Source: a virus (taxonomy: Duplodnaviria; Heunggongvirae; Uroviricota; Caudoviricetes). Taken from it: a stretch of 36,503 bases of DNA. A program made the position numbers and the translations under genes. The notes under the pieces are model-generated. The model was not told where the DNA came from. It did no database searches and saw only the letters and a list, made by a program, of their open reading frames with translations. Shown here piece by piece: positions 21,698-22,399 of the stretch. Where the stretch lies: IMG/VR virus record IMGVR_UViG_2713896908_000012, positions 1-36,503 of that record. One strand, given 5' to 3'. Within the stretch, counting starts at the first letter, position 1. Every line of letters starts with the position of its first letter.

Positions 21698-21882
21698 GAT
21701 GCCTCCAAGCCTCTAAGGAAAGAGGTTTATATCTACCTGGAGGCAAAAATATATATACACAGAATGTTTATTTCATGTTGTATATTTGATTGTTTAATGT
21801 GCAGGTGCAATGACTTTTATTTATTGCCGCGCATATAATCAAATATGTGATCATCTTTCATCCTTCGTATTCGACAGACAAT

Positions 21883-21902
21883 AAAAAACCCGCCGAAGCG
21901 GG
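21883..21902 (-). terminator. Intrinsic terminator of the hok mRNA
   Basis: Stem CCCGC/GCGGG with CGAA loop (21889-21902), followed on the minus strand by U6; ~70 nt downstream of the hok stop. Confidence 0.6.
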
Positions 21903-21972
21903 TTAGGTGCGGGTGCGTTGAGGATGCCTGACACATCTGAGGTGGCGAGGGATTTCTCCCTCGCCTGGTCTC

Positions 21973-22128
21973 TTACTCCTCAGGTTCGTAAGCTGTGAAG
22001 ACAGCGACCTCCGTCTGACCGGTTCGGATTCGTACCTCGCAGAGGTCTTTCCTCGTTACCAGTGCCGTCACAATGACGGTTAAACAGATGACGATCAGGG
22101 CGATTAACATCGCCTTTTGCTGCTTCAT
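21973..22128 (-). CDS. hok: Hok/Gef-family type I toxin (HokD/RelF-like)
   Basis: Translation from ATG 22128: MKQQKAMLIALIVICLTVIVTALVTRKDLCEVRIRTGQTEVAVFTAYEPEE (51 aa), which I recognise as Hok-family. An overlapping upstream frame (track ORF 21980..22285) is consistent with a mok-like leader frame. Confidence 0.85.
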   Translation of the reverse strand: MKQQKAMLIALIVICLTVIVTALVTRKDLCEVRIRTGQTEVAVFTAYEPEE

Positions 22129-22399
22129 AGCCTGATTCTCCTTGCCTTTCGGCACGTAAGAGGCTAATCTTCAGTTGTCGAGACATAAGACTGGCCTCAC
22201 TTCGATTTATAGTCGGGTGGGGCTTTTCTCTATCTGCCTTTTGGTGTTCATGCCTGAGACAGATAGCCTCAAGCACCCGCAGCAATTCTACTTAACTATC
22301 CTTTTCCCGCAAATCGTTTTTATCCCCAGCGACAAATCGAATACACCACCAGCGCCACCGCCATTGCAATTCCCATCGTTGCGAATGCTTCAGGCCAGG

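What the first reader, a model, noticed from the sequence alone, without database searches (positions are those of the whole stretch)
21880..22399. hok-type type I toxin locus embedded in the prophage
A 51-aa Hok-family toxin ORF with an overlapping upstream leader frame (mok-like) and its own terminator. The Sok-type antisense RNA would be on the plus strand over the leader (roughly 22150-22300), and there is a 9-bp inverted repeat near the hok stop (GGCGAGGGA...TCCCTCGCC, ~21945-21970). This is an addiction or abortive-infection-type module inside the nin-like region.
Basis: partly seen in the sequence, partly recalled or inferred. Interest (0 to 1): 0.4.

Follow-up and report, generated by a model that had tools for sequence, protein, structure and literature searches.

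The report
Intact prophage hok/sok toxin-antitoxin locus
This is a complete copy of the well-known hok/sok "host-killing" toxin and antisense-RNA antitoxin module, sitting in the early region of a Rac-like lambdoid prophage. It is real and looks functional, but it is an ordinary, already described kind of element.

Summary
On the minus strand, 21973-22128 encodes a 51-aa Hok toxin (Pfam HOK_GEF, E=1e-23) identical to E. coli K-12 HokD and 92% identical to HokW of phage 933W/Sp5. Every regulatory part known from plasmid R1 hok/sok is present:
- a hok promoter and an mRNA 5' end (tac) that pairs with a 3' fbi element;
- a metastable 5' hairpin and ucb/mok-SD/dcb switch elements;
- a 68-codon overlapping mok frame;
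- an intrinsic terminator;
- a convergent Sok promoter and a ~51-nt Sok RNA on the plus strand (~22177-22227).

Minimum-energy folds reproduce the closed full-length state and the open 3'-truncated state. Pairings are 96-100% conserved in 38 relatives, with compensatory changes in four of the five key helices. K-12 hokD lacks everything upstream of the hok ribosome-binding site; this copy does not.

The Rfam "sok" model matches the hok-sense leader, not the antisense strand.

Homologous loci are annotated in over 1000 E. coli genomes, and hokW-sokW has been tested experimentally. Novelty: already known. Interest: low.

The parts
22308..22313 (-). hok promoter -35 (TTTGCG)
   Evidence: Lies 17 nt upstream of the -10. 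Relatives carry TTTGCG, TTGGCG or TTGGCT at the same spacing. Assigned by position and conservation; the consensus scan did not call it.
22285..22290 (-). hok promoter -10 (TAGAAT)
   Evidence: A TAnnAT-type hexamer sits at a fixed distance from GGGTGCTT in nearly all of 38 relatives, even where the upstream flank is unrelated.
21884..22278 (-). full-length hok mRNA (~395 nt; the +1 and the 3' end are inferred)
   Evidence: The start of the Rfam model and the conserved GGGTGCTT 5' end place +1. The terminator sets the 3' end. The minimum free energy is -158.6 kcal/mol, z = -6.95 against shuffles.
22267..22278 (-). tac (translational activator element), the mRNA 5' end GGGUGCUUGAGG
   Evidence: It pairs with fbi in the full-length fold and with ucb in the 3'-truncated fold. 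tac/fbi is 98.5% paired with 2 covarying pairs. tac/ucb is 99.6% paired.
22250..22276 (-). metastable 5' hairpin of the nascent transcript (tac paired with the sequence just downstream)
   Evidence: It appears in an alternative fold. All cells are paired in 38 relatives, and 3 pairs change on both sides.
22219..22225 (-). ucb, the anti-Shine-Dalgarno of mok (AAGCCCC)
   Evidence: It pairs with the mok SD in the full-length fold and with tac in the truncated fold. The ucb/mok-SD helix is 97.4% paired with 4 compensatory pairs. Element definitions follow PMC9841398.
22160..22198 (-). Sok-target hairpin of the truncated mRNA: mok SD GAGGC (22198-22194) paired with dcb GCCUC (22164-22160), with the mok AUG in the loop
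   Evidence: It forms only in the 3'-truncated folds. The equivalent hairpin folds in all 38 relatives at -10.3 to -14.6 kcal/mol, despite a hypervariable upper stem and loop.
21980..22186 (-). mok reading frame (68 codons, +1 relative to hok)
   Evidence: ORF listed. It matches PHROG 37205 at E=2.3e-28 and DUF5431 weakly. GAGG lies 8 nt upstream of its AUG.
22138..22143 (-). hok Shine-Dalgarno AAGGAG
   Evidence: Lies 9 nt upstream of the hok ATG. It is nearly invariant in the alignment.
21973..22128 (-). hok toxin gene (51 aa plus stop)
   Evidence: Pfam HOK_GEF E=1.2e-23. It is 51/51 identical to K-12 HokD and 47/51 identical to HokW.
21987..21990 (-). UACG at hok codon 47, a candidate TadA A-to-I (Tyr to Cys) recoding site
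   Evidence: TACGAA is invariant in 38 relatives. Editing of hokC/D/E at the equivalent Tyr has been published (PMC12214031). It was not tested here.
21944..21965 (-).
   Evidence: Searches confirm the repeat. It is 96.6% paired with 3 covarying pairs. It corresponds to the last stem-loop of the truncated R1 hok mRNA, which protects against 3'-5' exonucleases (PMC9841398).
21911..21923 (-). fbi (fold-back inhibition element) CCUCAACGCACCC
   Evidence: It pairs with tac in the minimum-energy fold. The pairing is conserved, with compensatory changes. Homology to distant genera stops right after it.
21881..21904 (-). intrinsic terminator of the hok mRNA
22142..22170 (+). sok promoter: -35 TTGCCT (22142-22147), 17-nt spacer, -10 TAATCT (22165-22170)
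   Evidence: Found. The -10 aligns with TAACCT of sokW. That is the heptamer replaced in the 'pro-less' mutant that lost antitoxin activity (primers YO-421/422; result). It is weak by consensus (4/6 and 3/6) and was not called by the scan.
22177..22227 (+). predicted Sok antisense RNA (~51 nt): a 16-nt single-stranded 5' tail over the mok start, then a terminator hairpin and UUUU
   Evidence: The ends were mapped from the annotated 71-nt sokW of 933W through the alignment. The fold is -19.1 kcal/mol, z = -4.08. A terminator-like site lies on the plus strand at 22214-22236.

Best explanation
This is a complete hok/mok/sok type I toxin-antitoxin locus of the HokD/HokW (prophage) subgroup. It most likely works as plasmid R1 hok/sok and Sp5 hokW-sokW do.

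1. A weak promoter makes a stable ~395-nt hok mRNA. The mRNA is born inert: its 5' end (tac) pairs with the 3' fbi element, and the mok ribosome-binding site is held by ucb.
2. Slow 3' trimming removes fbi and stops at the 3' stem-loop.
3. The 5' end then flips onto ucb. The mok SD pairs with dcb to form a hairpin that exposes the mok start.
4. While the locus is transcribed, a short, unstable ~51-nt Sok RNA from the convergent promoter binds that hairpin. It blocks mok translation and triggers duplex cleavage.
5. When Sok supply stops, ribosomes translate mok across the hok start and so allow Hok synthesis.
6. Hok inserts into the inner membrane and kills or permeabilises the cell.

Shown here: the sequence elements, the alternative folds and their conservation. 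Inferred from homologues: transcription, processing, Sok instability, toxicity and the biological role.
For: Toxin:
- HOK_GEF and PHROG 251 match strongly, and the protein is identical to HokD.

Leader RNA:
- Rfam RF01794 scores 119 bits.

Folds:
- The full-length mRNA folds closed through tac/fbi, with the mok start paired.
- The 3'-truncated mRNA folds into tac/ucb plus the target hairpin.

Conservation in 38 relatives from several genera:
- tac/fbi is 98.5% paired with 2 compensatory pairs.
- The 3' hairpin is 96.6% paired with 3 compensatory pairs.
- The metastable hairpin is 100% paired with 3.
- ucb/mok-SD is 97.4% paired with 4.
- Slid controls give 30-47% paired.

Sok:
- The ends map from the annotated sokW. 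The RNA folds as a 5' tail plus a terminator hairpin.
- The sok -10 aligns with the one whose mutation abolished antitoxin activity.

Comparison and experiment:
- The locus aligns element by element with an R1-type plasmid hok/sok.
- Experiments on the 85%-identical hokW-sokW showed a toxic Hok, neutralisation by sokW, and inner-membrane localisation (PMC8621323).
Against: - No expression data exist for this copy.
- Both promoters are poor matches to the sigma-70 consensus and were not called by the scan.
- tac/ucb never varies, so it has no covariation support.
- The upper stem of this copy's target hairpin is weaker than in most relatives, and its mok AUG is unpaired.
- Its Sok hairpin is 22 nt shorter than in the tested sokW.
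- Chromosomal hok loci tested earlier did not give post-segregational killing (cited in 10.1101/2025.08.07.668861).
- NCBIfam's Hok subfamily model scores below its cut-off (48.5 against 73).
Confidence: 0.9

Rival explanations
1. The biological role is induction-coupled lysis help. The prophage keeps Hok silent in the lysogen. On induction Sok disappears, and Hok damages the membrane ahead of holin and endolysin, which speeds up and increases phage release.
For: There is direct evidence for the homologue hokW-sokW. sokW RNA vanishes after mitomycin C in a RecA-dependent way. HokW appears about 1 h before endolysin. Deleting the locus delays growth arrest by ~40 min and halves the number of released phage (PMC8621323). 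In this window, hok lies in the same orientation as the early and lysis genes. No terminator-like site was found between the upstream genes and hok.
Against: In 933W/Sp5 the locus lies near the right end of the prophage, not in the nin-like region, so regulation may differ. The effect measured was only two-fold. Nothing has been tested for this copy.
Confidence: 0.4
2. The biological role is addiction (post-segregational killing that stabilises the prophage) or abortive infection against other phages.
For: This is the classical role of R1 hok/sok. hok genes are about four-fold enriched in prophages (10.1101/2025.08.07.668861). R1 hok/sok on a high-copy plasmid reduced T4 plating by 42% (cited in PMC8621323).
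Against: Chromosomal hok loci that were tested did not mediate post-segregational killing. Hok is not in PADLOC. That survey reports, in a section heading, that hok is not enriched near defence systems. Deleting hokW-sokW had no growth effect in uninduced lysogens.
Confidence: 0.3
3. It is an inactive relic, like hokA/C/D/E of E. coli K-12, kept only by hitch-hiking in the prophage.
For: Most K-12 hok copies are inactivated by insertion elements or rearrangement (PMC12214031). The promoters here are weak by consensus. One relative carries a premature stop in hok (L006).
Against: Both ORFs are intact, and every regulatory element is present and pairs correctly. No insertion sequence interrupts the locus. 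K-12 hokD shares homology only from window position 22142 onward, so it lacks the promoter, tac, ucb, mok and sok. This copy has them all. The hok ORF is under very strong conservation, with diversity of 0.03 or less.
Confidence: 0.08

Closest known systems
hokW-mokW-sokW of Stx2 phage 933W / Sakai prophage 5
   Same: It shares 85% DNA identity over 95% of the locus. Hok is 47/51 identical. tac, ucb, mok SD, dcb, hok SD, the 3' hairpin and fbi come in the same order. [quoted passage not shown]
   Different: sokW is 71 nt; the predicted Sok here is ~51 nt because 22 nt of the hairpin top are missing. mokW is in frame with hokW, giving a 70-aa extended Hok, whereas mok here is in the +1 frame. 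The Sok-recognition loop sequence differs. The position in the prophage differs: right end in 933W, nin-like region here. The terminator also differs.
hok/mok/sok (parB) of plasmid R1 and related IncF plasmids
   Same: All named elements align one to one. The mok-to-hok offset of 58 nt (+1 frame) is the same as in R1 as I recall its sequence. The R1-type copy fetched here (L141) appears by hand count to be in frame. The Sok hairpin is short in both. The mechanism is the one defined on R1 (PMC9841398).
   Different: Hok is only about 44% identical. DNA similarity is limited to the regulatory core. R1's copy is plasmid-borne, this one prophage-borne.
hokD (relF) of the Qin prophage, E. coli K-12
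   Same: The Hok protein is identical, 51/51. Both lie in the same kind of lambdoid region, followed by a rem-like gene. PGAP names the homologues of this locus hokD.
   Different: K-12 homology begins only 14 nt upstream of the hok ATG (window 22142). K-12 hokD therefore lacks the hok promoter, tac, ucb, mok and sok, and sits directly behind relBE. The window copy is the complete form.
hokC/mokC/sokC (gef) and other chromosomal hok loci
   Same: They share the same architecture and are recovered as relatives at 72-82% Hok identity.
   Different: They are core-chromosome loci rather than prophage loci. mokC is in frame. They form a different subgroup.

Membership tests
[quoted passage not shown] | A small (~50 aa) Hok/Gef-family membrane toxin | tested here: met
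   Pfam HOK_GEF scores 82.9 bits against a cut-off of 22. PHROG 251 gives E=2.8e-33. The protein is identical to HokD.
[quoted passage not shown] | An upstream mok reading frame whose translation runs across the hok start (translational coupling) | tested here: met
   A 68-codon ORF runs from AUG 22186 with GAGG 8 nt upstream and covers the hok SD and AUG. Relatives have this AUG in all three frames, always reading across the hok start. Coupling itself was not tested.
[quoted passage not shown] | A cis-antisense Sok RNA with its own promoter, complementary to the mok translation-initiation region | tested here: inconclusive
   The promoter hexamers, the 5' tail and the terminator hairpin are present and homologous to the validated sokW. 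Transcription cannot be shown from sequence, and the promoter scores poorly against the consensus.
[quoted passage not shown] | 5'-3' end pairing (tac/fbi) that closes the full-length mRNA | tested here: met
   It is present in the minimum-energy and centroid structures. It is 98.5% paired in 38 relatives with 2 compensatory pairs.
[quoted passage not shown] | Refolding after 3' truncation: tac/ucb plus the mok-SD/dcb target hairpin | tested here: met
   Truncated folds switch to exactly this structure. tac/ucb is 99.6% paired but invariant. The target hairpin folds in 38 of 38 relatives. The 3' processing itself is not testable here.
[quoted passage not shown] | A metastable 5' hairpin in the nascent transcript | tested here: met
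   100% paired, with 3 pairs changed on both sides.
[quoted passage not shown] | Match to the curated RNA model (Rfam RF01794) | tested here: met
   119.3 bits against a gathering score of 59, covering the full model 1-157. The model matches the hok-sense leader, not the antisense strand.
[quoted passage not shown] | Toxicity of Hok, neutralisation by Sok, RNase III cleavage of the duplex | not testable with these tools
   Shown only for homologues (PMC8621323; PMC9841398).
NCBIfam NF007279 (Hok family toxin subfamily) / NF007290 (HokA) | Score at or above the curated cut-off | tested here: not met
   48.5 against 73 and 40.2 against 89. These models describe other Hok subgroups. PGAP nevertheless names close homologues hokD.
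isrK Hfq-binding sRNA (Rfam RF01394) | Score at or above the gathering score, and a Gifsy-type context downstream of Q with C4/a1b1 | tested here: not met
   31.2 bits against 50 over the hok 3' UTR. The true isrK lies downstream of Q beside C4 RNA, with no hok nearby.

The most novel reading that the evidence does not exclude
The Sok-recognition stretch (22173-22195) is by far the most variable part of the locus among otherwise near-identical prophage copies. I found 53 alleles in 142 loci, and this window's allele occurs in only 17 of 5426 complete E. coli genomes. This could reflect diversifying selection for mutually orthogonal Sok/hok specificities, so that the several prophage hok/sok copies in one genome (median 2 places, up to 10) cannot cross-protect. 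On that reading, this copy, with its rare loop, shortened Sok and +1-frame mok, would be a distinct specificity class.
Probability: 0.35. Interest if true: 0.3.

Novelty: already known. Interest (0 to 1): 0.1.

Why it matters
It matters little as a discovery. hok/sok is a textbook system, prophage copies have been annotated since 1999 (933W), and one has been characterised experimentally. The practical value is in annotation:
- It gives a fully mapped, intact HokD-type locus that shows what K-12 hokD has lost.
- It warns that Rfam's 'sok' hit marks the hok leader on the sense strand. Pipelines that copy it will mis-strand the antitoxin.
- It flags this prophage as carrying two type I toxin-antitoxin systems (hok/sok and ralRA). 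These could affect prophage stability, lysis timing on induction, or cloning toxicity.

Tried and rejected
- The consensus promoter scan over 21600-22600 found neither the hok nor the sok promoter. It found only two unrelated AT-rich sites downstream of hok. The promoters were therefore assigned by homology and positional conservation.
- A sub-threshold isrK match over the hok 3' UTR (31 bits) suggested that isrK might derive from a hok 3' end. I rejected this. In Gifsy-1, isrK lies directly downstream of Q, overlapping the C4/a1b1 immunity RNAs, with no hok remnant. The match is a hairpin plus a terminator with little sequence identity.
- Other weak matches (rsmX, CsrC, Trp leader, an HTLV frameshift site) are far below their gathering scores and were dismissed.
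- Column-wise covariation of the upper stem of the target hairpin failed, because the hypervariable loop is misaligned by MAFFT (71% paired). I replaced it by folding each sequence separately.
- PADLOC gave no hit for Hok, Mok or the small ORF.
- A Pfam match to DUF6232 for Hok is below its cut-off and was ignored.
- I considered that read-through from the early operon could silence the convergent sok promoter on induction. I left this as an untested idea, because the studied hokW locus sits elsewhere in its prophage.
- The source organism was not identified. The best complete E. coli genomes are 92-97% identical.

Full report
OBSERVATION

The minus strand of 21880-22399 carries a 51-codon ORF at 22128..21973. 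It matches Pfam HOK_GEF at 82.9 bits against a cut-off of 22, E=1.2e-23, and PHROG 251 'MokW-like host killing' at E=2.8e-33.

An overlapping frame starts at ATG 22186, which is 58 nt upstream of the hok ATG and so in the +1 frame. It runs 68 codons to 21980. It matches PHROG 37205 at E=2.3e-28 and, weakly, DUF5431 (21.5 bits, below the 27-bit cut-off).

A terminator-like hairpin with a T run lies at 21904..21887.

The 9-bp perfect inverted repeat is at 21944-21952 and 21957-21965. A comparable repeat arose in 23 of 2000 shuffles.

Rfam RF01794 matches 22278..22126 at 119.3 bits against a gathering score of 59, E=8e-27.

CONTEXT

All neighbouring genes are on the minus strand. In order they are YdaT, an IstB/DnaC-like ATPase, DUF1627, DUF977, DUF551, the hok locus, a rem-like ORF (PHROG 1813), DUF1367, YbcO, a DUF1133/Q-like protein and a holin. 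This order matches Rac-like prophages of E. coli, where PGAP annotates a Hok/Gef protein at the same place. It also matches the partial 'phage Rac' record, which annotates mok and hok.

A RalA sRNA (202.8 bits) and a RalR-like ORF lie at 34.6-34.9 kb.

'Prophage, nin-like region' is therefore correct. The window is only 92-97% identical to any complete E. coli genome, so it is a mosaic relative and not a sequenced reference.

ANATOMY OF THE hok mRNA

I aligned the locus with 37 non-redundant relatives drawn from 139 fetched loci. These came from Escherichia, Shigella, Kluyvera, Citrobacter, Erwinia and others.

Homology starts at a positionally fixed -10 hexamer. This is TAGAAT at 22290..22285 here, with a TAnnAT-type hexamer in nearly all relatives, even where the left flanks are unrelated. 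A TTTGCG/TTGGCG -35 lies 17 nt upstream. In distant genera, homology ends right after GCACCC at 21911. The conserved unit is therefore promoter to fbi.

The inferred mRNA (22278..~21884, 395 nt) folds at -158.6 kcal/mol, z = -6.95. In the full-length fold:
- the 5' GGGUGCUUGAGG (tac) pairs with CCUCAA-C-GCACCC (fbi, 21923..21911);
- the mok start region pairs with 3' UTR sequence;
- GCCCC (ucb) pairs with the mok SD GAGGC.

When the 3' end is cut back to 21924-21930, the predicted fold changes:
- tac pairs with ucb (22225..22219);
- GAGGC pairs with GCCUC (dcb, 22164..22160);
- this makes a hairpin with the mok AUG in its loop;
- the 9-bp inverted repeat remains as the last 3' stem-loop.

A further alternative fold shows the 5' metastable hairpin (22276..22250).

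These are the states defined for R1 hok, namely closed tac/fbi, open tac/ucb with mok-SD/dcb, and the metastable hairpin. In R1, mutations that weaken the last 3' stem-loop of the truncated mRNA abolish toxicity by exposing it to exonucleases (PMC9841398).

CONSERVATION OF THE PAIRINGS (38 sequences)

| Helix | Cells paired | Pairs changed on both sides |
|---|---|---|
| tac/fbi | 98.5% | 2 |
| 3' stem-loop | 96.6% | 3 (G-C to A-U in 8 and 10 sequences) |
| tac/ucb | 99.6% | 0 (helix never varies) |
| metastable hairpin | 100% | 3 |
| ucb/mok-SD helix | 97.4% | 4 |

Because tac/ucb is invariant, its high pairing is not independent evidence. Slid-partner controls give 30-55% paired. In shuffle controls the observed values for percent of cells paired, cells changed on both sides and covariation score were never reached in 500 shuffles. 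Some pair-count and pair-type measures were reached, in 76, 130 and 275 of 500 shuffles.

The upper part of the target hairpin cannot be scored column by column because it is hypervariable. Folded one at a time, all 38 sequences form the hairpin, at -10.3 to -14.6 kcal/mol.

SOK

Phage 933W annotates a 71-nt sokW antisense to the hokW leader. Its ends map through the alignment to window positions 22177 (5') and 22227 (3') on the plus strand.

Upstream lie TTGCCT (22142-22147), 17 nt, and TAATCT (22165-22170). The -10 aligns with TAACCT of sokW. Takada et al. replaced exactly that heptamer in their promoter-less construct (primers YO-421/422), and the construct lost antitoxin activity.

The predicted 51-nt RNA has a 16-nt free 5' tail covering the mok start. 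It then forms a G+C-rich hairpin followed by UUUU, at -19.1 kcal/mol, z = -4.08. It is 20 nt shorter than sokW, because this copy and a few relatives lack 22 nt at the top of the hairpin. R1-type and Erwinia/Citrobacter copies are short as well.

Both promoters are weak by consensus and were not called by the scan. Transcription is inferred, not shown.

The Rfam model called 'sok' matches the minus strand from the hok +1 to the hok AUG. It is the hok leader in sense orientation.

COMPARISON WITH KNOWN LOCI

- **K-12 HokD.** The Hok protein is identical (51/51). However, the K-12 hokD region is homologous only from window position 22142 onward. It lacks the promoter, tac, ucb, mok and sok, and follows relBE. 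The window holds the intact form of that locus.
- **HokW.** Hok is 47/51 identical to HokW.
- **R1 Hok.** Identity is about 44%, counted by hand from the alignment.
- **R1-type plasmid copy.** All elements align one to one.

Homologous DNA occurs in 4939 of 5426 complete E. coli genomes. In 1114 of them it covers at least 80% of the query. The homologues are usually annotated hokD.

A recent survey found Hok in about 80% of Enterobacteriaceae genomes and four-fold enriched in prophages (10.1101/2025.08.07.668861).

MECHANISM AND ROLE

The molecular mechanism is taken from R1 and Sp5. It is supported here by structure and conservation only.

For hokW-sokW the following were shown (PMC8621323):
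- Hok is toxic and locates to the inner membrane.
- sokW neutralises it, with partial dependence on RNase III and Hfq.
- sokW disappears on RecA-dependent induction.
- HokW appears about 1 h before endolysin.
- Deleting the locus halves phage release.

That makes lysis help on induction the best-documented role for a prophage copy. Addiction and abortive infection remain possible but untested. Chromosomal copies that were tested failed to give post-segregational killing. Hok is not in PADLOC.

An inactive relic is unlikely, given the intact ORFs and elements and the very low diversity of the hok ORF (0.03 or less).

SIDE OBSERVATIONS

- The mok AUG is in frame with hok in 25 of 38 relatives. 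It is in the +1 frame in 6, including this copy, and in the +2 frame in 7. In the +2 cases it gives a 19-codon leader whose stop should overlap the hok AUG, judging from its length and offset. This fits the view that translation across the hok start matters more than the Mok peptide.
- The Sok-recognition stretch is the diversity peak of the locus, at 0.23-0.31. There are 53 alleles among 142 loci. This window's allele is present in 17 of 5426 genomes.
- The UACG at codon 47 is invariant. It is the published TadA Tyr-to-Cys editing site of hokC/D/E (PMC12214031).
- A 27-aa hydrophobic ORF (22403..22320) overlaps the stop of the DUF551 gene. It is kept intact in 14 DNA variants.

VERDICT

The finding is real and correctly interpreted, and it is already known. 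Interest is low (0.1).

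Noticed in passing
window 22126-22278 (- strand): The Rfam family named 'sok antitoxin' (RF01794) matches the hok-sense leader from the mRNA 5' end to the hok AUG, not the antisense strand. The Sok RNA proper is the complement of only the middle third (~22177-22227, + strand). Automatic annotation from this model would mis-strand and over-extend the antitoxin.
   Followed up: yes
window 22320-22403 (- strand): A 27-aa hydrophobic ORF (MTWPEAFATMGIAMAVALVVYSICRWG) has a start that overlaps the stop of the DUF551 gene (ATGA) and ends just upstream of the hok -35. It is intact in 14 distinct DNA variants across 27 loci, including 933W, with 24 synonymous and 29 non-synonymous codon variants. 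It has no match in Pfam, NCBIfam, PHROGs or PADLOC and is not annotated in the records I looked at. Other left flanks of hok also appear to encode short hydrophobic peptides.
   Followed up: partly
window 22173-22195: The Sok-recognition region (mok start and target loop) is the most variable part of the locus among 71 close relatives: diversity is 0.23-0.31, against 0.03 or less in the hok ORF. There are 53 alleles in 142 loci. This window's allele is exact in only 17 of 5426 complete E. coli genomes. This may reflect diversification of antisense specificity.
   Followed up: partly
window 22186 (mok AUG) and alignment A1: Among 38 relatives the mok AUG is in frame with hok in 25, in the +1 frame in 6 (including this one) and in the +2 frame in 7. 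In the +2 cases it gives a 19-codon leader whose stop should overlap the hok AUG, judging from its length and offset. Single-base indels in the target loop account for the shifts.
   Followed up: yes
window 21987-21990 (- strand): UACG at hok codon 47 (Tyr), within TTACGAA, resembles the tRNA-Arg anticodon loop and is invariant in all 38 relatives. Published work reports low-level TadA A-to-I editing (Tyr to Cys) at the equivalent site of hokC, hokD and hokE.
   Followed up: partly
window 21883-21964 (- strand): There is a sub-threshold Rfam match to the Salmonella Gifsy-1 sRNA isrK (31 bits, gathering score 50) over the hok 3' hairpin, fbi and terminator. The true isrK in Gifsy-1 lies downstream of Q beside the C4/a1b1 RNAs, with no hok nearby. 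The resemblance looks architectural and not homologous.
   Followed up: yes
window 34561-34947: A second type I toxin-antitoxin system sits in the same prophage. A RalA sRNA (Rfam 202.8 bits, - strand, 34769-34947) lies next to a RalR-like 69-aa ORF (34561-34770, + strand), as in E. coli Rac.
   Followed up: partly
window 22213 (alignment A1 columns 70-91): This copy lacks 22 nt that most prophage relatives, including 933W, carry at the top of the Sok/ucb hairpin. The short form is shared with a few E. coli prophages and with Erwinia, Citrobacter and R1-type copies.
   Followed up: partly
window 21700-21880: An AT-rich ~180-nt spacer separates the hok terminator from the rem-like ORF (21485-21697, PHROG 1813). 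It holds promoter-like hexamers on both strands (21810-21839 on + and 21776-21748 on -). This was not examined further.
   Followed up: no
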